Notes under the pieces: model-generated
The model's input: only the letters and a program-made list of their open reading frames with translations
The model's database searches: none
Told to the model about the DNA's origin: nothing
Assembly: GCA_032718475.1 (NCBI GenBank)
Contig: JAUCBJ010005699.1
Location: 1-57,746, forward strand
DNA: 57,746 nucleotides
Reading direction: 5' to 3'
Origin: Nemertoderma westbladi
Taxonomy: Eukaryota; Animalia; Xenacoelomorpha
Program-made: the position numbers and the translations under genes
Shown here: piece after piece, positions 21,170 through 53,279 of the stretch
Position numbering within the stretch: the first letter of the stretch is position 1
Layout: each line of letters starts with the position of its first letter

Positions 21170-21245
21170 TAATACTAATATAATATAATAATACTATAAT
21201 ATAATATAATATAATATAATATAATATAATATATATAATACTATA
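21170..21245. repeat. (TAATA)n microsatellite in the 5' UTR
   Basis: Direct reading. Confidence 0.85.
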
Positions 21246-21397
21246 AGTGTATACCGGTACTCTAATATATTGTATATACATCACGTTACATAGAGTAACG
21301 ATATCGGTAATTAATTACTAGGCTAACAGTTGATACCGAATTACTAGACTTGCTTTAACTGTAATATAGCAGTAGGCATTCAACTGTACAAACAAAC

Positions 21398-22770: not shown

Positions 22771-23029
22771 AGTAGCATATTTTGGTCTTTTGAATTTTGG
22801 TCGCATATGACCGTAATTAATCAATCAACATTAACTCGAATGATATTACTATATCTATAGTTCATCCGTTTTAAATAAAGCCAATAAAATATTGATCCCG
22901 CGCATATACTGTAGAAGATGCGCGACAATGAACGTGGTCACAGATGTCTATAATTTAACATTATACTGTACTGTATGTACAATGGAGTCAAGTAGAGAGA
23001 GAGAGAGAGCTTAAATAATAATAATAATA

Positions 23030-23909
23030 ATGGCCACAGACACATATATCACTCTACTTTCAGATAGCTCATAAAACACTTACCCCAATAATAATCCTAG
23101 CGAGTTTACTGTTGATTTAGCCGAAGAATTATATATTGGTCCAAACGCTAAAATTGGGCTTGCCGAGCTTCAATACCAAGCAACATACAGTAATATTACG
23201 CTGCAAACTCAAATCTCGCTGTCAATCGGGGTAGATGCAAAAGATGCCAAATTATATAGTTTATTTCCTGGTATGCATAACTCTATTCAAGTCATTATTG
23301 ATGATATAAATAAACTGTTTAATTCTGAAGCGAAATATAGAGATTTCGAATTCATTTTTAATACAAATAATTATAGAATTAAATTTAAATTTCCTAAAAA
23401 GTTGAAAAAAATACAATTAAGTCTACGTGGTGATTTAATACAAATTCTAGGCTTAAAACCGTTATTGGATCGGAATCATCCGGATATTCCGAATTGGGAT
23501 ATATACAGTACCACTACAGTAGATGAATTAAGCAATATAGAACAGCCGATATTAATTTTAAATTATAGCGGACCAAAAATTTCGGAAATTGGCATTTTAG
23601 ATTTTCCAGCTCCCACGAATATAACACGTAATAAAGACACTATCTTTATATACACAGATATTATTAAGAGCTCATTTGTTGGTGACGCTTTAGCTCCGCT
23701 CTTAAGAACCTGCCCTTTAACGCAATTAAATCGAAAATATATTAATCACGAATACGAGAGCATTTGCTATTACCCGTTGTTGAATAAAAAACTAATTACT
23801 TTAATCAATCTTAATTACTTTACGTGACGGACAAGGCGAATTAATTAACTTCAGCGGAGGTCGCACTGTTATAACACTTAAGTTAATACGGGGTGGCAGT
23901 GATGGATGA
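23030..23909 (+). pseudogene. Minor capsid protein (penton) paralogue 1
   Basis: MATDTYITLLSDSS*NTYPNNNPSEFTVDL (TAA 23072-23074), in frame with ORF 23273; IFIYTDIIKSSFVGDALAPLLR; frameshifted tail TLRDGQGELINFSGGRTVITL. Confidence 0.85.
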
Positions 23910-24756
23910 ATTCTACGTAAGACTACCAAGTAACTCCTGTCCAATTGATTTTCCCCGCAATAGCGCTAGTAATTATCAGATTAATTTCCATGGCGCCTTA
24001 CCTATAAACCCAAACGAAAACTGGGTGGTAGGTATAAAAAGTATATTTTACTTAGCTATGTTGCCGTCCATGTATAACAATGTAGAGAATGTTATTTTAT
24101 TAAAAAAAGGAAAAAAAAATTTTGAGGATACACTTCCATCCGGTTTGTTCTACAGTATCAATGACATTATAGATTATTTTAACACGGGGGCGTTGAAAGA
24201 TAAATTACAAATAGTTGAAAATACTCAGCAAAATAGGTTGCAATTTATTTTAGGGAAAACTGTGCGAGAGTTATTTATAGGTCAACAATTAGCCTATTAT
24301 TTTGGAATTACTGAAAATAATCTCGGCGTGAATTTAAATCCAAATTTTAAAATTATTTTGAAGACGAAAAATAATATAAAGGGTTATTTAATAAAGGTTA
24401 TCGGAAATGGAGAAAAAGCTTACCAGATGGTATTTTTATGCCCTCAACCACCCAATTCTATTCCAGAACCTAAGTCGAACATGTACGTGACTACTAATAT
24501 AATTGAAAATCAATATATTAATGACTTTGGTTTAGCTTTACTTCGTCGTGTTGCGATACCTGATGACGTGAAATATGGTAGCGTAATAAATAAAGAATTT
24601 GTCAAGGATACAATTCATTATATCCCTGTAAAAAAATCATATAAGATAACATACATTCATATTGAAATAACAGACAAAGAAGGAAAAGATTTGAATTTTG
24701 AATATGGGACAACATCTATTACATTACACTTTAAACGCTTTAAACGAATAAATTAA
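23902..24756 (+). CDS. Minor capsid protein (penton) paralogue 2
   Basis: MDEFYVRLPSNS...FPRNSASNY...WVVGI; MYVTTNIIENQ...LLR; HYIPV...IHIEITDKEG..LNF...ITLHFKR, the Polinton penton pattern. Confidence 0.88.
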   Translation: MDEFYVRLPSNSCPIDFPRNSASNYQINFHGALPINPNENWVVGIKSIFYLAMLPSMYNNVENVILLKKGKKNFEDTLPSGLFYSINDIIDYFNTGALKDKLQIVENTQQNRLQFILGKTVRELFIGQQLAYYFGITENNLGVNLNPNFKIILKTKNNIKGYLIKVIGNGEKAYQMVFLCPQPPNSIPEPKSNMYVTTNIIENQYINDFGLALLRRVAIPDDVKYGSVINKEFVKDTIHYIPVKKSYKITYIHIEITDKEGKDLNFEYGTTSITLHFKRFKRIN

Positions 24757-24757
24757 A

Positions 24758-25321
24758 ATGGATTCTGATTTATTTCAAAGATACAGTAAACCTCAATATG
24801 GTGGTGCAGACTCGAATCTTGCTGTTTTTAAAGGTGGAAGAAGTACCAGAGGGTCGATGCAAGTTCCTGTTTTTCGAGGTGGTTCATATATTGACCCTTA
24901 CGGTCAACAAATTGGCACATTTGGTACAAACTTAAAACAACGTCGTTTTCAGCGTTATCGTAGAGGTATGCGGGCAAATCAACACGGAGAAGGTATATTT
25001 ACAGACGCTTTATCGACATTGAAAAAATTTGGTAAGCCATTAGCTAAAAAAGTTTTACAGAAAGCTTTACCATTTACCACAAAATTTATGAGACAACACG
25101 TAATACCAAAAGGTAAGCGGGTCTTACATCAGCAGGCTAATACGGTTATTAATAAAGCATTAAATAAAATGAAACCGTCAACAAGGTCAGTTGTAGAAAA
25201 AGTTTATAGAGATTTAAAGCGACCCGCTAGACCAATGTCTATGAACATACATCATCGACGTAGTAATAAAAATAAAAAAATAAAGGGCAAACTGAAACAC
25301 TGCGAAAAAAGTATTTTTTAA
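24758..25321 (+). CDS. Basic virion core / membrane-active protein with probable adenain cleavage sites
   Basis: Between penton and hexon; R/K rich; QYGG, FKGG, FRGG, QHGEG motifs followed by amphipathic IFTDALSTLKKFGKPLAKKVL. Confidence 0.7.
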   Translation: MDSDLFQRYSKPQYGGADSNLAVFKGGRSTRGSMQVPVFRGGSYIDPYGQQIGTFGTNLKQRRFQRYRRGMRANQHGEGIFTDALSTLKKFGKPLAKKVLQKALPFTTKFMRQHVIPKGKRVLHQQANTVINKALNKMKPSTRSVVEKVYRDLKRPARPMSMNIHHRRSNKNKKIKGKLKHCEKSIF

Positions 25322-25323
25322 TA

Positions 25324-26583
25324 ATGTCAATTATTAAGGAATTAGATTTATTTTCTACACAGCCAATACAGACTGAATTTAAAGCAAAGCATTATGAAAC
25401 AATTTACCCCGTATCTAATCTCAGAAGTGAATCTAGGGAGGTCACGTTCCTTGTACCGAGATCCAATGAATTCTATACGAAACGACAAGACGCGTTATTA
25501 ATTACAAAATGTACTGTACGATGGGATAGACGACTTGAAAACTCCCATATATATATGTTGAATTACCCCGCTGAAACTATGTGGAGTGATATTAAAATAG
25601 ACCTTAATGAGAAGCAGGTTGAAAATAGCAATAACCATTATTTCTACAAGTCGTACTTATCCAATTTATTATTTACAACTTACAAGGATAAAAATGGGCT
25701 ACTGGGTGCGGGTGGCTTTCATCAACCTTTATCTGAACATGGAAATGAAATTGACCCAGGCGCGCATCCTATTGGTGATGCCTTTAGTAAATAAATGCAA
25801 TTTGTAAGTGGATTGACAATTGATTTTGATACTGAAACTAAAATAATACAACCCGGGTATGATTTAAGAATGCATTTTAGAAAAGTATCAAATTCGTTTA
25901 TTTTTAAAATCACTCCAAACGCAAACGCTGTGACAAATCTTCGGTTAGAATTAGATGAAATAAAGATCCTAATCCCTAGAATGGAGGTTAATCCGGTAAT
26001 AGAAAGCAGTCACCTAAAAGGTTTAGAGAGTTACGATATTGAATATCAATTCCAAAAAAAGGAGGTGACAACATTTACTATTCCCGCACAAACCACAAAT
26101 TACACCCAAACAAACATATTTGATGGTAAAAAACCCAAATTAGTTATTATCGGCTTCATAACAAATAACGCTTATTCGGGAGAATTAATTAGCAATCCCT
26201 TGAAATTTGAACATTTTAACCATAGACGCGCAGAACTGATTGTAGACGGTCTTCCAGTAGGTGGTGTAATATACGAGCCTAATTTTACAGATGGAACATA
26301 TATTTTTGAGTATACTCAATTAATGAAGAACATTAATACATATATTAACGGTTATGGAGGTAATAATATAGACCATGAAACCTACTTAGGTAATTGCCCC
26401 ATCCTATCCTGGGACCTAACCGCCAACGGCTATGTTAGAGATCCGCAACCGTCGATATATACTAACGGTCAATTAAAATTAAGATTTGCCGAACCGTTGG
26501 TTGAAACCATAAATGTAATCGTTTTTAATATTTATGATCAATCATTAAGTTTAAATAGCAGGAAAGAAATACATATCGATTAA
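25324..26583 (+). pseudogene. Major capsid protein (hexon, double jelly-roll) with one in-frame TAA at 25792-25794
   Basis: ELDLF..PIQT...YETIYP, NY...MWSDI..LN, Y.YKSYL..LL, IFDGKKPKLVIIGF...AYSG...NPLKFEHFN, WDLT, LKLRFAEPL; both ORFs share a frame. Confidence 0.9.
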
Positions 26584-26585
26584 GT

Positions 26586-26984
26586 ATGTTATCTACAGAG
26601 GACCTTGATATGTTTCCAGTGGGTGGTCACTATTTGGGTGCGTTTCCAGCTAATAAATTACCTAAATTAGATAATAATAAGCGGCAGGATTATGGGCTAA
26701 TAGTAAATACCGATAAAGAGCATCTGCCTGGTATTCATTGGATCGCAATATATATACGAGATAATGAGGCCGAAGTATTTGACTCGTTTGGACCAAAATA
26801 TCCAAACAGATGCATCAAAAAATGGCTTGAGAAAAATTCCGCAAGGTGGCGTACTACTCGCAAACAATTTCAAGACCCAAGGAGGACCACATGCGGTCTG
26901 TACTGTCTTTATTATTTGGTAAATCGTATTCACACAATCTATCCAATGAGAGCGTTTACATATAATGTGGAAATAAATAAATAA
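26586..26984 (+). CDS. Adenain-like cysteine maturation protease (C-terminus possibly clipped)
   Basis: YLGAFPAN, IVNTD...PGIHWIAI, FDSFG, Q...TCGLYC (His/Asp/Gln/Cys set). Confidence 0.92.
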   Translation: MLSTEDLDMFPVGGHYLGAFPANKLPKLDNNKRQDYGLIVNTDKEHLPGIHWIAIYIRDNEAEVFDSFGPKYPNRCIKKWLEKNSARWRTTRKQFQDPRRTTCGLYCLYYLVNRIHTIYPMRAFTYNVEINK

Positions 26985-27072
26985 TATTATATAAATGGCT
27001 TGTTAATTATTATAAAATAAACCAACATGCGTTGTAATTAATCATTTAACTTGCTTTTGTTTATCAGATAAA

Positions 27073-27672
27073 ATGGATAATATTATTTTTGTTGATTTTC
27101 AATATTATAAGATAGACAATAAAGTGTATCTGGTAGTATTTAAAGAATTTGCAATATTCGATTCTAATTACACCAAAACTAATGTAAAGACGTTTTTAAT
27201 TAAAGGCCCGTCTAATATTAAGTTATCAGCTTTAGATGCAGCCCACGTAAACAATTTACGGGATATGACTTCTCACTTGCCCTGGGACTATGGGGACATT
27301 TCTCAAGATGACTTTAAAAAATATATGAAGAGACATTTAAAATATAAAAAAAATATTCATGTATTTGGGTTGCTGAAGCAGGCAATATTAGTTTCCCAAC
27401 TCGATGTTCTCGAGCCAAATTCGGTGGAGAGATTGGGAATATATAAGCAATATCACGATTATTTAACCCCTTGTCGGTTTCACGACCGATTCACTACAGT
27501 AGAAAATAAATGTGCGTTCCACTTAAACATAAGGGATAACTGTCTGCGATACTGCTCAGCAAAACGCGTTGGGGGGTATGAGATGCTACACTTTTTCATG
27601 AGAAAGCGTTTAACTGCGACTGATGATGATGATAAACAGAAAGAAATAACTGCGGTGGAAGATGTACTGTAG
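27073..27672 (+). CDS. DEDD/DnaQ-like nuclease-fold protein of Polintons
   Basis: IFVDFQ...FKEFAI...FLIKGP...HLPWDYGDI...IHVFG..K, with a C-terminal Cys/His cluster. Confidence 0.6.
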   Translation: MDNIIFVDFQYYKIDNKVYLVVFKEFAIFDSNYTKTNVKTFLIKGPSNIKLSALDAAHVNNLRDMTSHLPWDYGDISQDDFKKYMKRHLKYKKNIHVFGLLKQAILVSQLDVLEPNSVERLGIYKQYHDYLTPCRFHDRFTTVENKCAFHLNIRDNCLRYCSAKRVGGYEMLHFFMRKRLTATDDDDKQKEITAVEDVL

Positions 27673-28039
27673 GTTTACTCTAAGCATGTAATGTGATGGG
27701 ATATAATATAATTTTATTTTGGTGATGATCTTGATGTTAATATAAAAATATAATAAAATATAATTTTTTTACAACAAGTTCTCTAAAAAGAGTCAATTGC
27801 GCTAGGTTAACCATACACATTTAACAATATGATGTAGACGTAACATGTACAGTAAGTATTCTCGATATCATTCTAATATAGATGTACTGGTATTGCGAAA
27901 CATCCTATACATCGCAAACTAATAACACATACAGTAGTTGACTAGTAATATTAGTCAGAAATGCAACATAAACTGTATAGGATGTAGTGTTAACCTGTTG
28001 GTACCGGTACTGATAAATTCAATAATTTATTATAGGCCT

Positions 28040-28835
28040 AACCACAACTGTCATCCGCTTTATCAGTACCGGTAGTGTTTTACTCTTCCAACACTGTAGT
28101 CACAGTCTACTGGTATCAGTACAGCAGTAATCTGAAGCAATAGCATACTGCTGTCATGATCCGGATTACACGCAGGGGTCTCACATATAGGGATTAGATC
28201 ACCTACCCAAACAATACAGTACTGCAGTACAGTCGTTGTTGTTGTAACAGCATAGTTAGATACAGCATACTGATTTCCTTTGATTAGCATTGTACCGCAG
28301 TACCGGTACCGCAGTATTAATGTAACAGTACCCGCAGTAACAAACTAGGCTAATGTATACAATATCGTGAGCCAGTTACATCAGATGTGTACGCTGTCAG
28401 CCACACTGCGGGGGATGCGGTCAACCTCGCAGCTCCTATCCACAACTGTCATCCACTTTATCAGTACAGCAGTAATCTGATGCAATAGCATTTGTTTTTT
28501 TTCACCTATAAGGATACTGCTGTCTACCCGAACCTTGATTAGCATACTGCTGTCATAACCTAGAAGGCACGCGTGGCTCTCACATATAGGGATTAGATCA
28601 CCTACCCAAACAATACAGTACTGCAGTACTGTCGTTGTTGTTGTTGTAACAGTATAGTCAGATACAGCATGTTGATTTCCTTTAATTAGCATTGTACCGC
28701 AGTACCGCTACTACAGTATTAATGTAACAGTACCCGCAGTAACAAACTAAACCATTGTATACAATATCGTGAGCCAGTTACAATCGGATGTGCGCACAGT
28801 CAGCCACGCTGCTGGGAAGCGGTCCACCTCGCAGC
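28040..28835. repeat. Imperfect ~400-bp tandem duplication
   Basis: Shared blocks CCACAACTGTCATCC, TCTCACATATAGGGATTAGATCACCTACCC and GTATACAATATCGTGAGCCAGTTACA occur twice. Confidence 0.8.
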
Positions 28836-28859
28836 CGCCCAGCCACCCTCGCAGCTAGT

Positions 28860-29022
28860 CACGCAGTCAGCCTCGCGGCACGCAGTCAGCCTCGCGGCAT
28901 GCAGTCAGCCTCGCGGCACGCAGTCAGCATCGCGGCACGCAGTCAGCCTCGCGGCACGCAGTCAGCCTCGTGGTCGGTCATGCAGTCAGCCAGCCAGCCA
29001 CGCGGCTTGGCACGCAGTCAGC
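28860..29022. repeat. GC-rich ~19-bp minisatellite CGCAGTCAGCCTCGCGGCA
   Basis: About 7-8 degenerate copies. Confidence 0.85.
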
Positions 29023-29345
29023 CCGTGAGAGTCATACTTATTCAAACGAGGTTAGTTTTCCCTAACTACCGATAGATTGATTAAAAAAATAATAATGTTT
29101 AATTTTCACCTTCTAATCACCAACACCTAAAGTCACAACACCAAACATTAATAAATAATTAACAAGTTTACTAAATATAGGGTAATAAATGTGAAATTTG
29201 CTAGGTGAACACATTAAAGTACATTTACCAGTATGAAAGCAGCAAATGACTACGGTATTATTTATTCTTATTTTGCAATTATTAAAAATTTCAGGTTCAT
29301 ATATAACTTGAAGTTGCACATTATCAAAGACAACATAAAACCCGG

Positions 29346-31897
29346 TGTAACAGAAAAATATGCCCCCCCGGGAAATGTGCCCGGGGGGGCATATTTTCCT
29401 AGGAAAAAATGCCCCCCCGGGCAAATTTCCCTAGGAAAAAATGCCCCCCCTTAGGAAATTATGCCCCCCCTGAATTATACTATTTAACTGAAGACTGTCT
29501 GACTCTTTATCAACATCATATATTAATGATAGTAAATGGCTGAATGGCCAACCAAATTAAATCTTTAATAATTGAATTAGCAAATCAAGTTTTGTAATAT
29601 TTTGTATTTTACTGAAGACTGTCTGACTCTTTATTATCAACATCATATATTAATGATAGTAAATGGCTGAATGGCCAACCAAATTAAATCTTTAATAATT
29701 GAATTAGCAAATCAAGTTTTGTAATATAGACAATGTGTCCACGTCGTCGGAGGGAGACTGGTGATTTATCTTTCGGGTTTTCTTACCCTTCTTGGTTAGG
29801 TTCACTTGAAAATCTTCCAATGAATGGAATTTTTTCAGTTTACTACCATTAGCTGTACTTTTTAATTCTATTCCAAGGCTGTTCTTCAGCTTATAGACAC
29901 CCTTTGACAGTATAGCTGAAATTGAATATGGACCCAACCAAGAAGGTTGCAACTTACCACCCTTGCGCTGATCATTACGGGAATTTCGCAACAAAACGTT
30001 GTCATCAATTTTATAACTTGTGGCATTCCGTCGACTATTATACGCCTTCTGTTGTCGTTCCTGCGCTTTGCCAATATTCGATAGCGCTGCAGAAGTGATT
30101 GCAGCGCGAGTAGATTTCATCCTTTGAACAGCCTCCTCTACTTCCGCCTCTTCGAGATTAGTACCTTTCTCTGACATTACGTAATCATGATCAGCATGGT
30201 CAACGTGACCAGTGGAATTGGGTCTGGGATTAAAAGTCAATTCAATAGGTAGTATCGGTTTGCGCCCAAACATCAACTCAAAAGGACTAAAACGTGTGGA
30301 TGCGTTAACACTTGTCCGATATCCAAAAAGGACAGCATTGATGTAGATGTCCCAGTCGTTCTGGTTATCGTTGACAAACTTAACCAGAGCTGTCTTGAGC
30401 GTTTTATTAAAACGCTCATCGAGGCCGTTCGTTTGAGGATGGTAGGCGGAGGAAACACGATGGTCTGTCCCTGTAAATGAAAACAACGCATCGTTGACGT
30501 TTGCGACAAATTCACGACCTTGGTCCGACATAACTATCTCAGCAACTCCGTATCGGGTTAACAGCTCATATAGAAACTCGGCAACAAGGTAAGCATCTTT
30601 GCTGGGTATAGCTTTAGCTTCAGGCCACTTCGAAAAATAGTCGGTACATGTAATAATATACTTGTTCCCCTTTGAAGTAACCGTAAGTGGGCCGACTAAA
30701 TCGATACCGATGCGACTCCAAACTGTACCGTGGATTTCAATGGACTGGAGCTCTAATCCGGTTTTAGAAATCAACTTTGATGAACGTTGGCATATTTCGC
30801 AGTGCTTCACAAATTCTCCTACGTCCCGAGACAATGAATACCAGAAATATCTCGTACAGATTTTTTCCAGGGTCTTGTCCCGCCCGAGATGGGCAGCGAT
30901 AGCATCTGAATGGCAGGCTCCGATTATCTTCAGTTGATCGGAAGAAGAGGCAACCCAACGTCTGGGCTTTCTGGCTTCAACACCGTCGTTTTCCTTTCCT
31001 TCCTTTGACTTTTTACTGAGGTTGTAGAACAGTTGAGAATCTTTCAGATAAAACCTTGTGGCTTTCCGACGAATCTCCCGTTTATTTTCCTTTGAAGTTC
31101 CGTCGTTATAAGTACCGTTCGATAAGTAACGGAATATAGCATTGTAATCGGCGCATTCAGACTCACCCATGTCTAGTTTGAGTAGGTAGCTGGGTAGTCC
31201 TAACACTGTGAGACTGTACCAGTAGGCCTATAACTCGATATGGTGATATGGTCTGAACTATAAACTCCAACTATGAAACTTCATATAGTACAGTTACAGT
31301 TCTGCAGTTAGTACCGGTGGTGTTACAGTGGTGGTGTTTTCTAACCAAAACAATAAACTAATCTCCATTACTTAATTAACGGAAAGGATCAGGTTACAGT
31401 GGTGGGCTTTTCTAACCAAAACAATAAACAATATCTCAATAACATAGCGTATTTCATACTTATAGTCTTATTTTTGCAATACGAAAATACCAACGGTACG
31501 GATATGAACTATAACTCACACCCGCACTGCTGTTATACCAGTACCGTACTTACTACAGTAGCCTACTGACTTAGATACTTCAGTATGCTGTTCTACATCC
31601 CTTACTGCCTTACCTGCTTACCTACTGGCAGACCAGTACCGTACTATTCTTCCAACTATTACAAGTTCTGCAGTTGGTAGATTAAAAGTGGCTACCAGCA
31701 GACCGGTATCGTACCAGTTTTCAGACTTTTGACAGTTTGAGGGGGGGCTAATTTTCCTGAGGGGAGGCATTATTTCCTAAGGAGAAAATGCCCCCCCGGG
31801 CTAAATTTCCTAGGAAAAATTGCCCGGGGGGACATAATATCCTAGGAAATAATGCCCCGGGGGGCATATTCTAGGGGGGGCTGATTTCCTTGTGACA
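29346..31897 (-). mobile_element. Ginger1-type DNA transposon
   Basis: Ends TGTAACA / TGTGACA; imperfect ~130-160-bp TIRs built from CCTAGGAAA and GCCCCCCGGG units; CCGG duplicated at 29342-29345 and 31898-31901. Confidence 0.92.
29704..31206 (-). CDS. Ginger transposase (Gypsy-like integrase); likely ATG at 31170
   Basis: YL...Y N-terminal motif, H...HLG...CEIC zinc finger, GIDLVGP / SDQGREF / NGLDER triad, WLGPY motif; no RT; uninterrupted ORF. Confidence 0.92.
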   Translation of the reverse strand: MLGLPSYLLKLDMGESECADYNAIFRYLSNGTYNDGTSKENKREIRRKATRFYLKDSQLFYNLSKKSKEGKENDGVEARKPRRWVASSSDQLKIIGACHSDAIAAHLGRDKTLEKICTRYFWYSLSRDVGEFVKHCEICQRSSKLISKTGLELQSIEIHGTVWSRIGIDLVGPLTVTSKGNKYIITCTDYFSKWPEAKAIPSKDAYLVAEFLYELLTRYGVAEIVMSDQGREFVANVNDALFSFTGTDHRVSSAYHPQTNGLDERFNKTLKTALVKFVNDNQNDWDIYINAVLFGYRTSVNASTRFSPFELMFGRKPILPIELTFNPRPNSTGHVDHADHDYVMSEKGTNLEEAEVEEAVQRMKSTRAAITSAALSNIGKAQERQQKAYNSRRNATSYKIDDNVLLRNSRNDQRKGGKLQPSWLGPYSISAILSKGVYKLKNSLGIELKSTANGSKLKKFHSLEDFQVNLTKKGKKTRKINHQSPSDDVDTLSILQNLIC

Positions 31898-32196
31898 CCG
31901 GTATTGTTTATCAATAACCTATAGACTACAGACTTAATACTAAAAATATAAGTACATAAATTAACAGATTTTAAAATCAAATTAATACTAGTTTTATCAA
32001 ATATATGCTTTTTTACTTTTTGGAAATTATACTTACTGCCTAATAATGTAATACGACCATTTTTAAATATTAATAATGTGGCACCAAATATCTTAGATAT
32101 ATAAACTGACTTGGTTTGAGTATGTGTTTACCAGATAATTGATTTTTTAATTCTTTAAAATTAATCGCTGACACTTGCTGGCAACTTACATTCTTA

Positions 32197-35100
32197 TTAA
32201 CTATCTGATAGTTCATTGTTTGGTTCCCGATAAATAGGTATATTGTTTTTTTTTACGGGTTTTTCAACCTTTGTTTGATAGTGACCCCAGGGAAGCGAAT
32301 GATTTTTATTAACCCAATAAAGTTTATCGTCAAATGCGCTGAGAGCAAACTTATCTCGTGCTACAGTATACACTTTGTGTAATTGACTCTGAAATTGGTG
32401 CGTTTCCTTGGAAATTTCTAAGTTATCCTTATATGCACTTAAATAATCCTCGTGGCAAATATTTTTATCCACGACAGCTCTTGTTATTCCTTTCGCCCGT
32501 CGTATATTTGTTTCATTGAATTCTAAAATTGAATATAACTTTGGTCTTAAAAATACTGCTTGTTTAATTTTACGTGAGGCTAGTTCATCTTTACAGTAAT
32601 AGAGCCTGGATTTATTTTTATCGCTGTAGAGAGGGTGATCCTTGGGGTAATTGGATGTATCTAAAATATTATTTTTAATTAAGGCTTTTAAGAAATTACT
32701 CTGCGATGTATTATAGTAACACCCTATTAAAGAGTCCGTATCTGATGCTACAATTTCAATTCGGCAGTTTAATTCTTTCTCAATAGGTAGCAATTTATCG
32801 TAATACAGCTGATACATATCCAATTTAGCTAAGTCCAAGACAGTACTACCTACATAGACCGGCTTATCGAGAGTTACAGAGTCTTTCACTAATAAATGTC
32901 CCGATAAGGAATCGTTATAAATCATGAAATTTTCGTGATTTATACGTTTGACCAATAGGTCGCATTTCTCTTTACTATTAGCGATACGAAAGTTGCAACG
33001 GTCCCTTATCTTCTCTATCGTTTTTCCAAATAACGAATTATTTAGAAGCTTCGCAACAGCTGTTTCAATGTAACTTTTTGCTACGCGCCTTTGATTAATA
33101 TTAAAATCTATATAGGGTTTAAATACAAAGTCTTGATGGAAAGAATACAATTTATGGAGCTTAGTAACAATTAAACCTTGTTTTATATAAAATTTTAACA
33201 GTTTTAAATTTACATGATAGAATTCCTTATCGAATTGTGTCAACATAAGTTTTGGTGCACACATCTTATAATTGCTATTAGTACCTCTTTGTTTACAAAC
33301 ATGATTATATTGTTCCCTCATATATGGTGAAAGCATTATCTCATTTATACTTAAATGTTCTGGAGCTAAGGGTAGTTCTAATGTACGATCATGAATATCT
33401 TTGGGATATTTCAAATCGCAAATTAAGAAAAACCCAATATCACCTTCAGTATCAAGATTTGTCAAATAGTTTATTAGTTCTTCTGGAGCAGCATTCTCTA
33501 AATATGTAACGTTGACTTGTTCAAACCCTGAAACAGGTAGCTTTTTACTTAAATTACCAGAATACAAGGAATTAAAATCTATATTGAAAATATGACACTC
33601 TTCCTTGCTTGGATCATAATTATCAGTATCTGGTATATTTGATTCTATGTAATGCTTTCGACAGAATGATACCCCTCCTCTAATAGATGCTTCAAAATCT
33701 CTATATGTTTGGTAATCTTTTATTAATGCTAACTTACATTTATTGTATTTCAGGGCGCAATCATAAGTGAAAGCTGCGATACTGCAATAATAAACTACTT
33801 CTAATTCGTAGTTTTGTCTACACACTCTCCTAAAGTTCTCAAATATATCAGCGAGGAGACAAACATTGAGTTTTAAGTATGCTAAAAGATAATCCTTGAG
33901 ATTCACACAGTCAAACTGACTCCATGATGCGTTGGCAAAACTATATTCCTCGGGTGTACAGGTATTTTGTGTTAATTTACTATAAAATTTGTCTATTGAT
34001 GGTAATTTCGAATCATTGAATTTATTTAAATCTGTCAGATACTCGTAGGGAAATATACCTTTTCGTTTAATTGTTGCATTATTTAAATTTGGATAAAAAT
34101 ATTTCATTTGCTGTTCAGTAATTGGTAGAACTGATGTTATATCCTCGCTGTCTATATCCTTTGTTGAACAATCAACTAAAGTACTTAGGGAAAAGGATAA
34201 AAATTGATATGTGTCTAAGACACGTAGCTCGATCTTAGTTTTTTCATCTTTCACCGGTATATGCATGCTTAGTGAAATATACCTTTCAGAATTTTTAGGG
34301 ATCACCTTTATATCCCAATCGGAATATTTATTGTTGGTAAAACCAACTTGTAAAAGAAAATGCAAATCGTAGAGATTGCAGTTGTGTGCAGCGAGTATAT
34401 ACATGTGTCGTTTCAATGATAAAGAGCGGTTACACGCGTTACAAGCGGCTGCTATATAGTTACCAGTAATATGTGAGTGATGTTTATTTTTCTCAGACTT
34501 ATCCTTAAATAAAACATTGCAATAAAAGCAAGTTTTAGCTTTCCAAAAACTTAACTTATCTACTTCGTTAAGTATAATCTTCTCTCGCGTATGGGTTTCT
34601 GCCCACTTATATAATTGGGTGATGTCATTATATACAGAGTCTAAAAAGTCTTGAATACAGTTGTTGTCGATTGTTTTTGTAAAGGTCTTCAAATAAAATT
34701 TTGGTGGATTGATTAATTCACTACTAGGAACAATTAAATAACTTACAGCGCATGGAATATGATTCTGAATAAATTTACTGTTGGTGGCTGGCTCCAAAAT
34801 AGATTCTATGTCAAAATATATTACAAACAATGCTGGTAATGTTCTATCTAAATTTCTTAACCTAATGTGAGTTCTTTTTTCAGACGATAGCTTCTCAACT
34901 TGACTTTTTCCTCGATAACAAGCAAGACGGTGACGTTCTAGAACATCCTTGCTGTAGAAATGAGACAAACACCGTTCACAAAATTTCCTACATCTAATAT
35001 GCTTACCTGTTGTATTCAACAAACGATTCAAGTTAGTTATGCAAACATAATGTGATTGTTTACTCGTATTCTTATTTTTTACAAGTAATATATTCAATAA

Positions 35101-36210
35101 CTCTTTATCTGGAGTGATTTTACTAAATGGAGCCTGTCTTAATATAGATACTCGATTGTTATCGTAGAGTAATAAATTAATTATATATGCTGAATTCTGT
35201 TTTTCAAAAAGTTTAATTGCAAGCAGCCATTCTGTTGGATAATCTTTGTTCCCGTTGTCAAAAATAAAATGACTCATATAATTTTTGTACGATGAAGTAC
35301 GGTTTTTGTTGTTTTTTACTTTGCTACTAAATTTTGTGGCTATAATTGCCCATTTGAAACAGTCATTATCAGCCGTTTGTATATTTATAACACATTTTTT
35401 AACTGATAGAGTGTTAGGTAACTCCATATAACCGTGACCTTTATATTCCAGTGACCTACACTTGGATTCAGCTACTTTAATTTCCACTCTTAATAAAGAT
35501 TTAACGCGCCACCCTGAGCCACGAGTGTTAAATATGGCTATTTTTTGCATTAATTTTTCTAGTACATACTCAAACCATGTGTCAAAACTTTCATGTGAAT
35601 CTATGGTATTAACTGCACCACCTGAAGAACTAAAATAGAAAGCTTCTTCTTGATCTCCCTCTGAAAAATGTGATCGATACATGAGTATATTCACACCTAG
35701 CCAGGGTCTAAGTACATTCATTTCGCTAAGTTTTCCTAATAATAACGTTTTGATGTGTGGCAGAATTTTTAGTATCGATGAATGAATATCAGGAAAATCT
35801 TCATCATTCGGAAGATTGTAAACATAGATTTCTAAACGGTTATCGTGTGCAGCTCGTTCGATGCTAAAAATTGATGGACCTTGACCAGATTTCAGTCTTT
35901 TTCTAGATGCGACAGTATTGTTTTGGTTCGCTCGTGGTCTAACATGATAATAACGTTGGTGACAGTCGTGACGTAAATAATTATCATATAAATACTCTTT
36001 ATTACAAGTAGGACAAGTTTTTTCATACACGTAAAACTTCATTTCTTTACATCCCGTAGGTGTTTCGTGTCGTTTGCATATTTCTTCTGTAGGTGTAAAA
36101 ACATGACACTTAAAACAAGAATAACCTTCAAAATGTGACCTTAGGTGGCGTAAATAATTTCGTTTAGAAATTTGAAGAGGACAAAATGGACATTTCAATT
36201 GTTTATCCAT
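32197..36210 (-). CDS. polB: Protein-primed family B DNA polymerase with N-terminal zinc fingers and endonuclease VII/HNH-like insertion
   Basis: GSGW, NDCFKWAI, exonuclease YFDIES and HN...YD, DFNSLY, KLLNNSLFGKT, DTDS; CFYC...HHSHITG...ACNACN insertion; 1337 aa uninterrupted. Confidence 0.95.
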   Translation of the reverse strand: MDKQLKCPFCPLQISKRNYLRHLRSHFEGYSCFKCHVFTPTEEICKRHETPTGCKEMKFYVYEKTCPTCNKEYLYDNYLRHDCHQRYYHVRPRANQNNTVASRKRLKSGQGPSIFSIERAAHDNRLEIYVYNLPNDEDFPDIHSSILKILPHIKTLLLGKLSEMNVLRPWLGVNILMYRSHFSEGDQEEAFYFSSSGGAVNTIDSHESFDTWFEYVLEKLMQKIAIFNTRGSGWRVKSLLRVEIKVAESKCRSLEYKGHGYMELPNTLSVKKCVINIQTADNDCFKWAIIATKFSSKVKNNKNRTSSYKNYMSHFIFDNGNKDYPTEWLLAIKLFEKQNSAYIINLLLYDNNRVSILRQAPFSKITPDKELLNILLVKNKNTSKQSHYVCITNLNRLLNTTGKHIRCRKFCERCLSHFYSKDVLERHRLACYRGKSQVEKLSSEKRTHIRLRNLDRTLPALFVIYFDIESILEPATNSKFIQNHIPCAVSYLIVPSSELINPPKFYLKTFTKTIDNNCIQDFLDSVYNDITQLYKWAETHTREKIILNEVDKLSFWKAKTCFYCNVLFKDKSEKNKHHSHITGNYIAAACNACNRSLSLKRHMYILAAHNCNLYDLHFLLQVGFTNNKYSDWDIKVIPKNSERYISLSMHIPVKDEKTKIELRVLDTYQFLSFSLSTLVDCSTKDIDSEDITSVLPITEQQMKYFYPNLNNATIKRKGIFPYEYLTDLNKFNDSKLPSIDKFYSKLTQNTCTPEEYSFANASWSQFDCVNLKDYLLAYLKLNVCLLADIFENFRRVCRQNYELEVVYYCSIAAFTYDCALKYNKCKLALIKDYQTYRDFEASIRGGVSFCRKHYIESNIPDTDNYDPSKEECHIFNIDFNSLYSGNLSKKLPVSGFEQVNVTYLENAAPEELINYLTNLDTEGDIGFFLICDLKYPKDIHDRTLELPLAPEHLSINEIMLSPYMREQYNHVCKQRGTNSNYKMCAPKLMLTQFDKEFYHVNLKLLKFYIKQGLIVTKLHKLYSFHQDFVFKPYIDFNINQRRVAKSYIETAVAKLLNNSLFGKTIEKIRDRCNFRIANSKEKCDLLVKRINHENFMIYNDSLSGHLLVKDSVTLDKPVYVGSTVLDLAKLDMYQLYYDKLLPIEKELNCRIEIVASDTDSLIGCYYNTSQSNFLKALIKNNILDTSNYPKDHPLYSDKNKSRLYYCKDELASRKIKQAVFLRPKLYSILEFNETNIRRAKGITRAVVDKNICHEDYLSAYKDNLEISKETHQFQSQLHKVYTVARDKFALSAFDDKLYWVNKNHSLPWGHYQTKVEKPVKKNNIPIYREPNNELSDS

Positions 36211-36760
36211 CTCTTTATTATCCTAAAAACAATTTAAAATTAATATGAATATTGTTATATATATAATCAAAAAAAATTCATAAGCTACTCAACACAAATA
36301 AAATATAATATCTAAACTTTAATTAATTTAATATTTTCAGAATGAGCTCGATTGAATCAGTTGAGCTCTTTATATATATATATATATTTCAAGTTTCTAC
36401 TTATACCAACCAATCATAAATAACAGTTACATTGGAAACTAATATCATAAATAAAGTTGCTTTTACAACTGAATTCTTTATAATAAAATCAAGTCTAAGC
36501 AAAGATGTGCATAATGCGTTTTTAATTTTCATTGATAAAGTAGGTTTTACATGCTAATGTTTTATTATGGTGGTGTAAACTCATGCATTTACATGCGAAT
36601 GTTTTATACCTAATCCCATGCTCACATTAAACTATCACCAATATTTACTCAATAAAGTCACCTTTACATGCAAATACTTTATAATAATCACGCTTTGTGA
36701 TAAAAAGTTACCTTTACAAGTCAGTGTGAAACTGAAAAAAAGTCTCTAGTTAATAATAAA

Positions 36761-37804
36761 TCAATCTGATACTGTTTTTATATGTTCCTTATTGTAATCT
36801 GCTACCTCTTCACTTGCTTTTGTAACTTTTATTTTCTTTGTAGGTATAGAATCATTGTTGGGAATGGAAGATGTTTGAGATGTAGATCTGCGCTTTCTAT
36901 CACTCGATGTCTCTTCGATGTATGTCTTTGGATTAAATGTGGATGAAACTACTTCTGGAAATGACTTATTAACCTTAAACTTCCAAGTTGGTTGATATAG
37001 AATCGCGAAACCGTCTGCTATATCAGTTGATGAAACCTTTAACATCATATCGTAGAGAAACTCTATATGTGGTATGTCTTTATCGTAATGTAACTGTAAA
37101 TATTTGCTTTCCTTGTCTGTAATAATTACTTTTTTTTCTTGTACATTTATTTTTACTTTAAGTCGGTCAGATAAAGCTTTATCGCCCGTATCTAGCTCTG
37201 AAAAGACACCTTCGTTTCTAATTTCATAATTCCATTCATACCACAATGAATTTACTTCCGACGCTGTTAAGTTAAACCCATTATAATACTTAAGACCAAT
37301 AGCATCAGAATATCTAGCTGAAATCTCCCATAGTCCCATATAAGTTGTTCCTTTATATTTGCTTACAAAACCAACAAAAGATGGGTTGGTTAAATTAACA
37401 ACAGAGCACTGATTTATTATTTCGAGTGGTGGTGATAACAATTCTAATATTTCTGTCTTACTCTGAAGCAATAAATTAATGAGTGATTTGTTTAGAATTT
37501 GACATTTGCCTTGCTTCTGAATATATACGTTTTCAGTAATAACACAGGTGGAAATATTTAACTTTCCTCTTGTAAATTCTATATTAGGATAAATATTACC
37601 TCTTGAAACTGGTGATTCCTTTTGTCGGTTGATTAATATTTCTAAGACATCTAGAAGGTAGAGTGTATCCTGGTAAGAGAAGCATGTTGTTACATTGCTA
37701 TCGCTTGAGAGTAATATAAAGTACTTGCCATAAACAATACTACAGGTATATTTATTACATGTAAATTTCCAAGTATTGTTTGAAGTTTTTTTAAATAAAT
37801 CCAT
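36761..37804 (-). CDS. Polinton accessory protein with a PC4-like ssDNA-binding/coactivator domain
   Basis: FVGFVSKYKGTTYMGLWE...NGFNLTASEVNSL resembles PC4 (V..FKG...IDIRE...KGISL..EQW..L); basic C-terminal tail. Confidence 0.55.
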   Translation of the reverse strand: MDLFKKTSNNTWKFTCNKYTCSIVYGKYFILLSSDSNVTTCFSYQDTLYLLDVLEILINRQKESPVSRGNIYPNIEFTRGKLNISTCVITENVYIQKQGKCQILNKSLINLLLQSKTEILELLSPPLEIINQCSVVNLTNPSFVGFVSKYKGTTYMGLWEISARYSDAIGLKYYNGFNLTASEVNSLWYEWNYEIRNEGVFSELDTGDKALSDRLKVKINVQEKKVIITDKESKYLQLHYDKDIPHIEFLYDMMLKVSSTDIADGFAILYQPTWKFKVNKSFPEVVSSTFNPKTYIEETSSDRKRRSTSQTSSIPNNDSIPTKKIKVTKASEEVADYNKEHIKTVSD

Positions 37805-38353
37805 AATTAGAATGAAAACTATTTTGAAAAATAAAAACCAAATAAATGATTATTAGAATGTAAAACTTCTGTTTATATGGTTGCTTTATTACAACAGAGT
37901 GACTTACAGTGAGGAATATAGTAGCTTCGTGTAACAGATGCAACGTGTACAGCTAAATTTATTACATTAGCGTGAGTTAGAGAGTGAAATAGCAGTAACA
38001 TGTAACAGATGCAACGTGATCAATGCTAGCCCTGTCATTCTAACTTATATTTTAACTTAGTTGACCGGTCAGTCACATCGATAAAAGAAATCGATTATTA
38101 TTAATAGTCGAATTAATGTATTCTATGCTATAGTAATTATGTTAAGGAACTAGAAGCTATTTATAAACATCTGCTACCAGTGATGAAGATGAAGAATTCA
38201 ATGACTATGGTATAACTCAGATATTTATCGCCTTTTTCTCTCGAGGTTGGATGGAAGAGTGATTGGTGAGTTGTGAGGAGTTATATCGGTCCCGGGTTCG
38301 AACCCTGTTGAATATTTTGTTATCTGAAAAATTGCAAAATTAAATTTAGTTAC

Positions 38354-38742
38354 TGGTGAAAAATAGCGATTTGAAAAATAGTAGAAGTTACCTGTAGACA
38401 CCTCTAGCGTCTGTAAAATAATGGTTGGTGAAAAATAGCGATTTGAAAAATAGTAGAAGTTACCTGATGCTAAGTGTAGACACCCGAACACCTGTAAAAT
38501 AAAGGTTGGTTATTGGACGGAGTACTAGCGTTGGGTGACTAATAACGCCTCTAGCGGAAGATGCGGGAACTTGAGAAGTTGCCATGGTTACGGATGAAAT
38601 GCTGACATCTGATTGGTTGAAATAATAACGACCACTGCTAAAGGTTGAAATGGTGGCTTCTGATTGGATGGATTACTAAAAATGGACGGTAATGATGGGC
38701 TACGGGTGACTTTGATCGAGGTGGCTAGCTTCTTATACTACT
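38354..38742. repeat. Polinton right terminal region with subterminal direct repeats
   Basis: TGGTGAAAAATAGCGATTTGAAAAATAGTAGAAGTTACCTG at 38354 and 38426; terminus ACTACT. Confidence 0.7.
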
Positions 38743-41700
38743 CACCTGTACTCCTAGAACCTACCTCTAAATTCCCTTTGCACAGCACTAAACTACCTGT
38801 GCCCAGCAGAACAACCCCTGAGACAGTTCCTGTCCTGGACTCCGAGCGAAATATCAATGATTTGTCGCCCATTGTCCCTCGTCCACACGCTACTATGTTG
38901 GCGGCTCCCGCTTCGGCGGTAGAGTGGGTGGATGAGGGACGACGGGAGATGGGTCTACTGCTCGGGCAGCTGAGGGAACACCGTTTGTGCTCCTCTCAGC
39001 AGGTCCGAGAGATGGAAGGGACTGTTCAGCAGTTAAAGGGAACAGTCAGAGAGGGTAGGTTAGAGTTGCAAGAAGTGCAGCAGAGTATCGCGTTAGAACG
39101 CGATAAATTAGTAAATACACAAAAGGGTATACCACCACCCCCTGTAACAATGTGTCAACCTGTTAGGTCTTAAGTATTTCATGCGCAAGGTGTGGAGCCT
39201 ACACGCATCTATACTGCTAGTGAAGTAGAAACTCCTATAGTAAACCCTATTAAGGGTAATTATAAACCTGTTGACAATGATATTCCATATAGACCTGATC
39301 ATAATCCGAGAAATTTATATACCGATAGCTCGATATTAAATAACACGATGGCCCAAGAAAGTTTTACACGTCAAATGGCTAGAACCGAAGCCCGTCAAGC
39401 GGTAAAGGTGGGAGAGATTGTCAAGTTCAATGGAGATGAGATGAAATGGTTACCTTTTAATGAATATTACAAAGATAACATACAGAATTCTGTGCTATCT
39501 AACGGAGAGAAACTTAGATTCCTCATCGAGTGCTTGGAAGGATCTCCCAAGTTAATGGCGTTAAAGTTTATTGGACATCCGGATGGATTAAGACAAGTTT
39601 GGGATACACTAAACATCAGGTATGGTAATAGGAATAACATAGCTAGGTATTTGTATGCGAAATTAATGGCGCCCCGAAAGTTTCTTAGCAGCGGGATTAT
39701 AGAGTTTTCCGACGAGATTCAGGAGATCTGTAGACAACTAGATTGGTTAGTCTCATGAATACCAGAATTCTATGGTTATTGGACCCGTAGCATCTGCTTT
39801 GCCAAAGGGTGGAGTAGGTACACGCTGGGACAAGAAAGTGTTATATATGATGGAACAAGAACGAAGAGACCCTACCATGGCTGATCTCATGTCATTCTTA
39901 GATGGAGAGGTAAAATTACAGCTCCTAAAGCAGTCCAGAGAGAAGACACCGGAAAATAAGGTAAGTGAGAAACCCGCTTCTAGGAGAAAGGTAACACCAG
40001 TGTGTTATACAGGCGACGGTGAAAGCCAGGCTTCTCAAGAGGAGGACAGCGGGAAAGACACTGAACGATCTTACTATAACAACAAAGCGCCTAAAGACGT
40101 AAGTAAATTTAAGTCTCGAACCAATGACAGGAGAGAACAGGTAAGAAAAACTCCTCCTACGTCTCCTAAGAGAATTCATGGAAGAAAGCCCGAGGAAAGA
40201 ACGAGTGTGCACAACGTTACCCAAAGTAAGGTAAGTAACATCAAACCAAAATGTGTGCTGTGCGACGGGCCACACCGTTTAAGTGTGTGTGATGAATTCT
40301 TAAAAAAAATCCTTAAAGGATAGACGTGAAGTCATATGGGATAAGCGATTGTGTTATAATTGTCTCAGACGAGGACACCAATGGCGGACCTGTTACTCCG
40401 ACGCAAGGTGTGCTAAGTGCGGCGCGAAACATCATATCTTGTTGCACACTGAATTCGAAAGAAACAGCCCGAGTCAGGTAAGTGAGTCCGAACTACATGT
40501 CCAATTCAGTGATGTGAACGACACTGATCAAAGTTCTGAGATGGAAGGATTCTATACGGATGAATTCTCTGACGAAAACGAATCCTGTTACATAATAAAT
40601 ACCGCAGTGTATCGAGCACTTACGTATGAGAAAGAAACCGATATTGAGCTCCCCCTAACTACTCCTGACCGACAACCATCTTGGAAAGCACCAACTTCCA
40701 ACGTGGGAATCCGAGAATTTCCCGTAGTGCAGTTGAGAGTCCACGGCCCACGAAAGAGTTATATAGTGAACACCCTCCTTGACTCCGGCAGCACAGGAAC
40801 ATTAATCGATAAAGAACTAGCCAAAGACATCTTTGCTGGACAACCCAAGTTCCGAACTAAGTTGAACATGTCAGGAATTATGCAGGTTTGGAAATCTACA
40901 GTAGCTACAGACTACTATGTAGGCGCGTTGTCCACCCCCCAGGATGAACTAGGAGAACACAGTATAAGGTCAGTAAAAATGGTGGCGATAAAGAACTTCG
41001 CTACCAGCCAAGTAGAACCTTATAACTGGGATGAGGACTATTTCACCCAGCAGCATAAGATACCTAGATTCAACACAGACTACCCTGGAGTGCAAATACT
41101 CATCGGCCAAAATGCGCATGAGGCGCTTGAGACATTGGAGAAACGGCCTGCTCAACCGCAACCACTGCAAACCTATGCGGGAATAACAAGAGTAGGTTGT
41201 TACCTCACTGGACCTTCCCGTAGGACACTCATGGAAAGGCTACCCAAAGATCGGGTCCATCAGGAGAGTGAATGGGAAGAAGACATCAGTGAGGGAGAGA
41301 CGACCATAACTGAGGGAACACCATACTCCTCAGATAATGACGATATTAACTCCAATGTAGATCAATGGAGACATTGCCCCGAGACAATTAATCTAGCCGA
41401 CATCGCTTCCAGAGGAGCAACTCCTCAAGAACTGACAGATACTCCAGACTGGTTAGGTGGACCCGACTTCCTAAGTAAAGAAGATGAATGGTCTCCCCAT
41501 CTTACCACGGCTGAGATTAGACAAGCCAAGGGAGCGGAGAAAGTCAAACCTAAAACCCGGACGAGTAAATCAAGGTTATTTAAACCCGTGATAGATCTGT
41601 CTGTACTACACATTGCCAGGGACGACGCTGTGGATCTAAACTCCCCCACCGCGAACAGATCTGTTGTGGAGATCAGAGAGAGAGACTGGAGATCTGGAAC

Positions 41701-41995
41701 ACCAGACGTCTCGCAGGGACTCTCACCTCTCCTGCCGGGAGCGATGGACCACTATAGCTCCTGGAATCGGCTTTGTAAGGCCGTCGTGTATTTGAAGCGA
41801 TGTTTCTATCGTCACTATTCCAGGACGAAGAGGAAACCTGGAATTGTATTCGAAACACAACAACTCAATCGCCCAGTTGGTCGTTTATGTTTACTGGAAA
41901 GAGACCGAGAACTGTCCGGAAACTATGGAAGGCAAGATACTCTTCCCACGACCACCTCCCTAATCCAACAAACATCTAGGGACTCCCCAACGTAG
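38743..41995 (+). pseudogene. Rest of BEL gag-protease with RT, most of RNase H and integrase deleted
   Basis: Aligns to copy 1 from ~4399; deletion junctions near 41348 (copy 1 ~6807 to ~8580) and 41830 (~9062 to ~10450). Confidence 0.88.
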
Positions 41996-43170: not shown

Positions 43171-43180
43171 CCTGCATGAG

Positions 43181-44445: not shown

Positions 44446-44523
44446 CTGTTTAGAGTATTTTTATATTTTAGAAACTGTGATTTTTTATATTTTATAGAAT
44501 TAAATCCCATTTTCTGGGAGCGG

Positions 44524-48684: not shown

Positions 48685-48988
48685 TTCTTAATTTTTTGCA
48701 AAAAAAAATCTTTTTATTTTTTCACTAAAATCGCTCTAACTTCGGTTCTGATGGTCCAAATTCAATAAAATTGGTATATTCTTTGCCGTAATTGTTTTTC
48801 TATCTTTTGAGACGGGGTCATTTTTGGCCCCAAAAAAAATGAAAAAAAAGGGCCAAAATGACGCGATATTTTTCGACCCTTAAAATTCGTAATTTTAATT
48901 ATAAATGTTAAGAAAAAAGATAGCCGAGTTAATTTTCTACATTTTACAGGTAGTTTTGGCGCAAAAAGCTAAATTATAATAGAGTAGC

Positions 48989-53190: not shown

Positions 53191-53279
53191 TATATTATTT
53201 TGCAATATTTCCAAAACATCAATCCTTCTAGCCAATGCGGACATGGACCCAGCACAGAACTGCAATCGTCACAGCACAG

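What the first reader, a model, noticed from the sequence alone, without database searches (positions are those of the whole stretch)
29113..32216. Hidden TBP-like gene in the Polinton, revealed by excising the Ginger
Seen: deleting the transposon and one CCGG restores an in-frame ~180-codon gene (one extra frameshift) whose start overlaps the PolB stop. Its two halves echo the TBP repeats: TLLIFKNGRITLLG versus TALIFSSGKMVCTG, and YEPEIF...CFHTGKCTL versus YEPELF...IFVSGKVVL. Known: TBP is not a core Polinton gene. Inference: an element-encoded, highly diverged basal transcription factor that could redirect host polymerase to element promoters. I cannot confirm whether this has been reported.
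Basis: partly seen in the sequence, partly recalled or inferred. Interest (0 to 1): 0.8.

Follow-up and report, generated by a model that had tools for sequence, protein, structure and literature searches.

The report
Broken viral TBP in Polinton-like element
A virus-like mobile element carries its own highly diverged TATA-binding-protein gene, broken in this copy by a transposon and a frameshift, which in working copies likely steers the host's transcription machinery to the element's own genes; such genes were already noted in related elements.

Summary
Three pieces downstream of PolB (32216-32100, 32094-31903, 29340-29116, minus strand) are the top 3 of 887 window segments against a profile of 120 TBP-like proteins, and they map in order. 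They keep all four DNA-wedging Phe sites and both acidic TFIIB-stirrup sites. A Ginger1-type transposon (29346-31897, CCGG duplication) and a frameshift break this copy. The frameshift lies at the TA run near 32095-32103. Contigs without the transposon exist, and listed variants are mostly synonymous (14 of 20). Intact TBP genes lie in 3 of 111 other PolB loci; one folds as TBP. Function is untested, and no shared promoter box was found. This is not new: Starrett 2021 labels TBP in such elements, and this scan found Polinton TBPs on other DNA at least 8 times. The odder feature is the setting. The block has no detected integrase, ATPase or long terminal inverted repeats, and sits inside a 27.5-kb BEL/Pao LTR element.

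The parts
32100..32216 (-). TBP-like gene, N-terminal piece (start codon, first Asn, first Phe site); ends at the frameshift
   Evidence: (profile 6-43, 0 of 500 shuffles)
32095..32103 (.). Short TA run where the reading frame of this copy breaks
   Evidence: (length difference in one X4 contig; loose end at 32101 in X1)
31902..32094 (-). TBP-like gene, middle piece (second Phe; start of repeat 2)
29346..31897 (-). Ginger1-type DNA transposon: TG...CA ends, imperfect TIRs, 4-bp CCGG duplication at 29342-29345 and 31898-31901, integrase ORF 29704-31227
   Evidence: family features from PMC6839031 passages
29113..29341 (-). TBP-like gene, C-terminal piece (YEPEIF stirrup, third and fourth Phe, stop)
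32197..36210 (-). Open Polinton/adintovirus-type PolB gene (no Pfam hit; closest relative 38% identical)
36761..37804 (-). 347-aa ORF upstream of PolB, unassigned
   Evidence: no family, no atlas hit, fold failed, no relative in the loci
23030..24756 (+). Two tandem minor-capsid (penton)-like genes; the first has a stop near its start. The label is inferred from homology and recalled gene order
24758..25321 (+). Basic, Gly/Arg-rich core-protein-like ORF (label recalled, no tool hit)
25324..26583 (+). Major-capsid-like gene with an internal stop at 25792-25794; label inferred from homology to 430-470-aa ORFs of Polinton-type loci
26586..26984 (+). Adenain-like maturation protease
   Evidence: (Peptidase_C5, 23.9 bits, cut-off 21.3)
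27073..27672 (+). 199-aa ORF, exonuclease-like by recalled motif only
   Evidence: no Pfam hit
22771..38742 (.). Polinton-like block, from AGTAGC at the left gag junction to ACTACT at the right; no long TIR, no 6-bp duplication; no integrase or ATPase detected
   Evidence: end motifs per PMC8097293 passage
18183..45687 (+). BEL/Pao-type LTR element holding the block inside its gag: LTRs 18183-19346 and 44524-45687 (1164 nt, 15 mismatches), ATTAT duplication; the stretches matching the RT/RNase H and most of the integrase region of the copy at 3405-10582 are missing

Best explanation
This is a broken copy of a TBP-family gene of a Polinton-like element; in intact copies the protein likely binds and bends AT-rich element promoters and would recruit host TFIIB and RNA polymerase II to them. 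Shown: TBP homology of all three pieces, in order; the four Phe wedge sites and both acidic stirrup sites; the two breaks; contigs lacking the transposon; mostly synonymous variation among copies; a position overlapping the end of PolB; no TFIIB gene detected in the window. Inferred: it is made early with PolB, acts once the element's DNA is copied, and serves mainly the virion-gene cluster on the other strand. It would use host TFIIB because it keeps the acidic stirrup that the herpesvirus mimic ORF24 lacks. Changed DNA-face sites (second Asn site to Ser, Pro after the third Phe to Asn) would shift its sequence preference away from the host TATA box.
For: Homology. Residue map: (Phe at 32105, 32067, 29286, 29238; Asn 32198; Glu 29298, 29292). 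Selection: 14 of 20 listed variants in the TBP pieces are synonymous and 15 of 20 fall on third positions (p 1.7e-4); PolB control 7 of 11 synonymous. Site without the transposon: joint 29341-31898 in X1 and X4; summed contig depth 7,000-28,000 on the flanks against 54-72 in the transposon core. Intact relatives: L033, L030 (followed by a TFIIB gene, Pfam E 5e-11) and L038 (third ORF downstream of PolB) pass the Pfam TBP cut-off. The L033 protein folds at pLDDT 92, and the best PDB matches are all TBPs, most at TM 0.74-0.83. Precedent: KSHV ORF24 needs the same four Phe for late-gene activation (PMC12529657, abstract and passages).
Against: No binding or expression data were obtained. No k-mer is shared upstream of the six virion-side genes beyond the random expectation. 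The window's own protein was not folded; the fold is that of a relative with 29 of 143 aligned residues identical. Each piece alone stays under the Pfam cut-off. The last Gly of repeat 2 did not align. Only 3 of 111 PolB loci (2 of the 37 of 10 kb or more) hold a detected TBP, though many loci are fragments. The variant test saw only the best-supported 40 of 175 rows, pooled from 4 runs, and the antiparallel frame also scores 9 of 14 synonymous. The joints have only 24-28 letters on the short side, below the tool's 31-letter bridging mark.
Confidence: 0.6

Rival explanations
1. It is a decoy or repressor: the protein would tie up host TFIIB or other TBP partners, or sit on host TATA boxes, damping host transcription rather than starting element transcription.
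For: The acidic stirrup is kept, no element-specific box was found, and no TFIIB is detected in the window.
Against: All four Phe sites are kept. L030 pairs TBP with its own TFIIB, which fits initiation better than a decoy role.
Confidence: 0.15
2. It is a DNA-bending helper for replication or genome condensation, not a transcription factor.
For: It overlaps the end of PolB here and lies just downstream of PolB in L038.
Against: In L033 it precedes the ATPase and in L030 it precedes TFIIB. The YEPE stirrup is nearly invariant in 62 relatives, which a pure bending role would not need.
Confidence: 0.15
3. It is a captured host TBP/TRF fragment riding along without function.
For: This copy is broken twice, and most PolB loci lack a detected TBP.
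Against: Synonymous bias among copies; intronless, compact layout overlapping PolB; low GC (25-28%), nearer the block's 33% than the gag's 46-49%; only weak similarity to solved cellular TBPs.
Confidence: 0.05
4. The resemblance to TBP is chance in AT-rich sequence.
For: No piece passes the Pfam cut-off alone; atlas score 0.81 is only a lead; two homologue searches with single pieces found nothing.
Against: The pieces are the top 3 of 887 segments, lie in order, and the X read-through scores 42 bits against a shuffle maximum of 8.
Confidence: 0.02

Closest known systems
TBP-labelled gene in MELD viruses with adintovirus-like PolB (Starrett et al. 2021, PMC8502044; bioRxiv 10.1101/697771)
   Same: A TBP-like gene in an element with this class of PolB. 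I saw it only as a label in the Figure 5 legend. The paper also describes a divergent PolB type under 30% identical to pfam03175, which fits the missing Pfam hit here.
   Different: The passages I read give no analysis of the gene. I could not see the figure, so I cannot say which element carries it, nor whether it is the one labelled Matrix/Capsid/NC/Pro in the same legend.
Cellular TBP (Pfam PF00352)
   Same: Two-repeat layout, four Phe sites, first Asn, both Gly turns and the YEPE stirrup; the fold shown for a natural relative.
   Different: Very low identity; no N-terminal extension; second Asn site is Ser, Pro after the third Phe is Asn; encoded by a mobile element.
Beta/gammaherpesvirus TBP mimics (KSHV ORF24; PMC12529657, abstract and passages read)
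   Same: A viral TBP fold with four Phe in a virus that has no RNA polymerase of its own.
   Different: ORF24 is a large multi-domain protein in a six-protein complex, lacks the acidic TFIIB residues and reads TATTWAA. This gene is a bare 180-codon core that keeps them, and no box was found for it.
TBP homologues of giant viruses and mirusviruses (PMC10132985 passages)
   Same: Diverged viral TBP fold.
   Different: Those viruses are far larger; mirusviruses encode their own RNA polymerase, as do most giant viruses (recalled).
Polintons/Mavericks (PMC8097293 passages)
   Same: PolB, protease, capsid-like genes, and AGTAG/ACTACT-type end motifs.
   Different: No integrase, ATPase, long TIRs or 6-bp duplication detected; the block lies inside a BEL/Pao LTR element.

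Membership tests
TBP family (PF00352) | Sequence match over two repeats | tested here: met
   both repeats matched in order; each piece alone is under the curated cut-off; X read-through 42 bits on a profile of 120 relatives
TBP family (PF00352) | Four DNA-intercalating Phe | tested here: met
   32105, 32067, 29286, 29238; feature as stated in PMC12529657
TBP family (PF00352) | Two central Asn of the DNA face | tested here: inconclusive
   First kept (32198); second site aligns to Ser (31932), as in L033, in a weakly aligned stretch
TBP family (PF00352) | Acidic second stirrup that contacts TFIIB | tested here: met
   Glu at 29298 and 29292; residues only, binding not tested
TBP family (PF00352) | Saddle fold | tested here: inconclusive
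   Shown for natural relative L033, not for the window's own broken gene
TBP family (PF00352) | Binds and bends a TATA-like box and seeds initiation | not testable with these tools
   Needs bench work; motif scan negative
Polinton/Maverick/adintovirus | Polinton-type PolB | tested here: met
   relatives lie beside integrase, ATPase, protease and capsid-like genes; no Pfam hit
Polinton/Maverick/adintovirus | Adenain protease and major/minor capsid genes | tested here: met
   Protease by Pfam; capsid labels by homology to neighbours in other loci, with no database label
Polinton/Maverick/adintovirus | Retrovirus-like integrase | tested here: not met
   Polinton integrases of L033 and L030 hit only the Ginger ORF
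Polinton/Maverick/adintovirus | Packaging ATPase | tested here: not met
   No tblastn hit at E<=1 (that single query finds only 7 of 37 large loci); the only Walker-A-like string lies antisense to PolB, just before a stop
Polinton/Maverick/adintovirus | Long TIRs and 6-bp target duplication | tested here: not met
   no similarity of the two ends above shuffles; about 470 nt of gag are missing at the site
Polinton/Maverick/adintovirus | (AGT)2...(ACT)2 end motifs | tested here: inconclusive
   AGTAGC at 22771 (5 of 6) and ACTACT ending at 38742 (6 of 6), both at the gag junctions; noticed after the fact, no chance test run
Ginger1 DNA transposon | TG...CA ends, TIRs, 4-bp duplication, Gypsy-like integrase with H2C2 finger and GPY motif | tested here: met
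   features from PMC6839031; no tree built
Herpesvirus vTBP system | Large vTBP without acidic stirrup, partner activators, TATTWAA box | tested here: not met

The most novel reading that the evidence does not exclude
The family is a Polinton derivative that has given up its integrase, ATPase and TIRs and now spreads as cargo of a 27.5-kb BEL/Pao LTR retroelement, while still selecting for its own TBP, PolB and capsid genes: a dsDNA-virus gene set moved through an RNA intermediate. For: the LTR pair is 98.7% identical with a 5-bp duplication; the block has no duplication of its own; and the whole block has high contig depth. Against: simple nesting in a transposon-dense region explains one copy equally well; 27 kb is long for retrotransposition (own knowledge); and no listed contig spans a gag-block junction. 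Starrett's Figure 5 legend lists Gag/protease labels, so such an element may already be drawn there.
Probability: 0.12. Interest if true: 0.75.

Novelty: new member of a known kind. Interest (0 to 1): 0.42.

Why it matters
How Polintons switch on their virion genes without an RNA polymerase of their own is open (own knowledge). A small element-borne TBP that keeps the TFIIB stirrup gives a one-protein, testable handle on that question, and a contrast to the herpesvirus mimics. This window adds a distant family (closest PolB 38% identical) with signs of purifying selection. The copy itself is dead and the kind of gene is already noted, so the gain is confirmation rather than discovery. The LTR setting would matter more if it proves to be shared by many copies.

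Tried and rejected
No own genome is held. Homologue searches with single pieces found nothing (word-limited, weak evidence). The Pfam TBP search over virus records could reach only 7 of 31 handles, with 1 of 7 positive. A viral scan with the TBP alignment gave one weak locus, L115, which has no Polinton gene hit; set aside. No RNA holder was listed; X5 is only guessed to be RNA, so expression is untested. The 347-aa ORF gave no atlas hit and a failed fold, pLDDT 32; a PC4-like reading by eye is unsupported. Late-promoter box: an exact 6-8-mer search over six upstream regions did not exceed 1000 random draws. A TTAA[AG] string 19-41 nt before four of six genes, also present before PolB, is after-the-fact and not claimed. 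TIR search between the block ends was negative. Contig depth was not converted into a copy number, as the tool warns against it. No tree and no complex prediction were run. Literature: eight searches listed no paper whose title or abstract start deals with a Polinton TBP or a Polinton-in-LTR chimera; most subscription papers are outside the library. The Starrett supplement (one zip, 3,999,981 characters searched, possibly cut) had no TBP, TATA, Matrix or Gag hit; figures and bioRxiv supplements were not visible and may bear on novelty. Searches of earlier scan notes for this genome and for an LTR chimera returned nothing.
Full report
Observation. The sequence shows a 2552-nt insert at 29346-31897 with TGT...ACA ends, flanked by CCGG on both sides. 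It has imperfect terminal inverted repeats and one integrase-type ORF with an H2C2 finger, an rve core and a GPY motif. These match the Ginger1 features given in PMC6839031 (passages). On the minus strand, coding pieces lie on both sides of it. They begin at an ATG at 32216, which is 20 nt inside the end of a 1,337-codon PolB gene.

Is it TBP? Singly the pieces are weak: Pfam TBP at E 2.4e-4 and 0.041, both under the cut-off. All 3 PDB hits for the middle piece were TBPs, and the one hit for the C piece was not. The atlas gave TBP clusters at 0.81, a lead only. Two homologue searches with single pieces were empty. I therefore gathered PolB relatives (best 38% identity), fetched 111 loci with their alignment, and found intact TBP-like ORFs in three: L033, L030 and L038. 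All three pass the Pfam cut-off on their own. They seeded a search that listed the best 120 of 296 relatives. Against a profile of those 120, the window pieces ranked first, second and third among 887 six-frame segments and covered profile positions 6-43, 48-74 and 117-150 in order. Shuffles reaching the observed scores numbered 0, 1 and 0 of 500, and the X read-through scored 42 bits against a shuffle maximum of 8. The natural L033 protein folded at pLDDT 92, and its best PDB matches were all TBPs, most at TM 0.74-0.83. The window's own gene was not folded.

Where it is broken. The N-terminal frame matches TBP through the first Phe site at 32105, so the frameshift lies at the TA run near 32095-32103; one X4 contig differs in length there. 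The second break is the transposon. Contigs in X1 (2 contigs) and X4 (1 contig) join 29341 to 31898, with only 24-28 letters on the short side; none was listed for X3. Summed depth is 7,000-28,000 on the flanks and 54-72 in the transposon core. This is not a copy number, but it fits a large family in which this insertion is rare. Of the 40 variant rows shown (of 175), 20 fall in the TBP pieces: 14 are synonymous and 15 lie on third positions, against 7 of 11 synonymous in PolB. For the C piece the other frames give 2, 2, 2, 3 and 9 of 14, the last being the antiparallel frame. This copy also has stops in the major-capsid-like and first penton-like genes, so it is decaying.

Residues and mechanism. 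All four Phe sites, the first Asn, both turn Gly and both Glu of the YEPE stirrup are kept. The second Asn site aligns to Ser, the Pro after the third Phe is Asn, and the last Gly did not align (read). PMC12529657 (abstract and passages) states that four Phe bend DNA in TBP and are required in KSHV ORF24, and that ORF24 lacks the acidic residues used for TFIIB. No TFIIB gene was detected in the window, whereas L030 carries one next to its TBP. My inference is an early-made factor that binds element promoters and uses host TFIIB and polymerase II (confidence 0.6). Prompted by earlier scan notes on a variant TATA box, I looked for a shared motif before the six virion-side genes and found none beyond chance. 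The target sequence is therefore unknown. Decoy and non-transcriptional DNA-bending roles remain at about 0.15 each.

How common. The profile found TBP in 3 of 111 PolB loci. This test is circular for those three, which is why the Pfam result is the independent one. Two of the three are among the 37 loci of 10 kb or more; many loci are fragments. TBP thus looks like an accessory gene in varied positions: before the ATPase (L033), before TFIIB (L030), and shortly after PolB (L038; and here).

The setting. The block 22771-38742 holds two penton-like genes, a basic ORF, a major-capsid-like gene, an adenain protease, a 199-aa ORF, repeats, TBP, PolB and a 347-aa ORF. The capsid labels are inferred from homology to neighbours in other loci and from recalled gene order. 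No Polinton integrase or ATPase was detected, and no long TIR or 6-bp duplication. Maverick-like end motifs sit at both junctions. It is therefore filed as Polinton-like, not as a complete Polinton. It lies within the gag of a BEL/Pao-type element bounded by 1164-nt LTRs with 15 mismatches and an ATTAT duplication, which lacks the stretches matching RT/RNase H and most of the integrase region of the neighbouring copy. The whole block has high depth in two DNA runs, but no listed contig spans a gag-block junction. Nesting is the likelier reading and cargo is not excluded. The animal host is inferred from the element types and was not determined.

What is known. [quoted passage not shown] The figure itself was not visible. 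Viral TBPs are known from herpesviruses, mirusviruses (PMC10132985 passages) and giant viruses. PMC10675990 (passages) mentions TBP only in mirusvirus-like elements. Eight literature searches listed no study devoted to a Polinton TBP. The scan's own notes hold 8 listed findings of this kind in other genomes; they are unchecked and are not counted as support. One of them reports lost partner surfaces, while this family keeps the acidic stirrup.

Verdict. The feature is real and was well spotted. It is a dead copy of a TBP-family accessory gene that appears selected in its family: a new member of a known kind whose function is untested. Interest 0.42. The LTR-cargo reading has probability 0.12 and would deserve 0.75.

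Noticed in passing
window 18183-45687: A 27.5-kb BEL/Pao-type LTR element (LTRs 98.7% identical, ATTAT duplication) holds the whole Polinton-like block inside its gag and lacks the stretches matching RT/RNase H and most of the integrase region; whether this is cargo or nesting is unresolved.
   Followed up: partly
window 22771-22779 and 38734-38742: Maverick-like end motifs sit at both gag junctions (8 of 9 letters inverted match) with no long TIR behind them, and about 470 nt of gag are missing. This could be a chimera of two insertions.
   Followed up: partly
window 22851-27786 versus 29021-38275: Summed contig depth in X1 and X3 is higher over the virion-gene half (51,000-99,000) than over most of the PolB half (about 5,000-44,000, outside the transposon); the halves may not always travel together.
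   Followed up: no
window 36761-37804: Open 347-aa gene upstream of PolB with no family, atlas or locus relative; the fold failed.
   Followed up: partly
window 31322-31445: A short repeated stretch inside the Ginger element has very high depth and many unrelated flanks in the runs, which suggests a separate dispersed repeat.
   Followed up: no
window 28020-29030: A duplicated ~300-nt unit (28141-28433 and 28540-28835, 88%) and a 19-nt GC-rich tandem array (28841-28992) lie where the two convergent gene sets meet; copy number varies among contigs.
   Followed up: no
L030:9876-11074: Adjacent TBP and TFIIB genes in a Polinton-type contig that IMG/VR files in a giant-virus bin.
   Followed up: partly
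L033:14633-15142 and alignment A4: A family of about 170-aa TBP-like proteins has Leu instead of the first Phe in 59 of 62 members, whereas the window gene keeps Phe there.
   Followed up: partly
window 950-1834: 294-aa minus-strand ORF with coiled-coil hits and a weak baculovirus-FP-domain hit, probably an ORF1-like retroelement gene.
   Followed up: no
window 48869-50048, 52211-53366, 57442-57717: Tandem arrays of 40-, 17- and 69-nt units.
   Followed up: no
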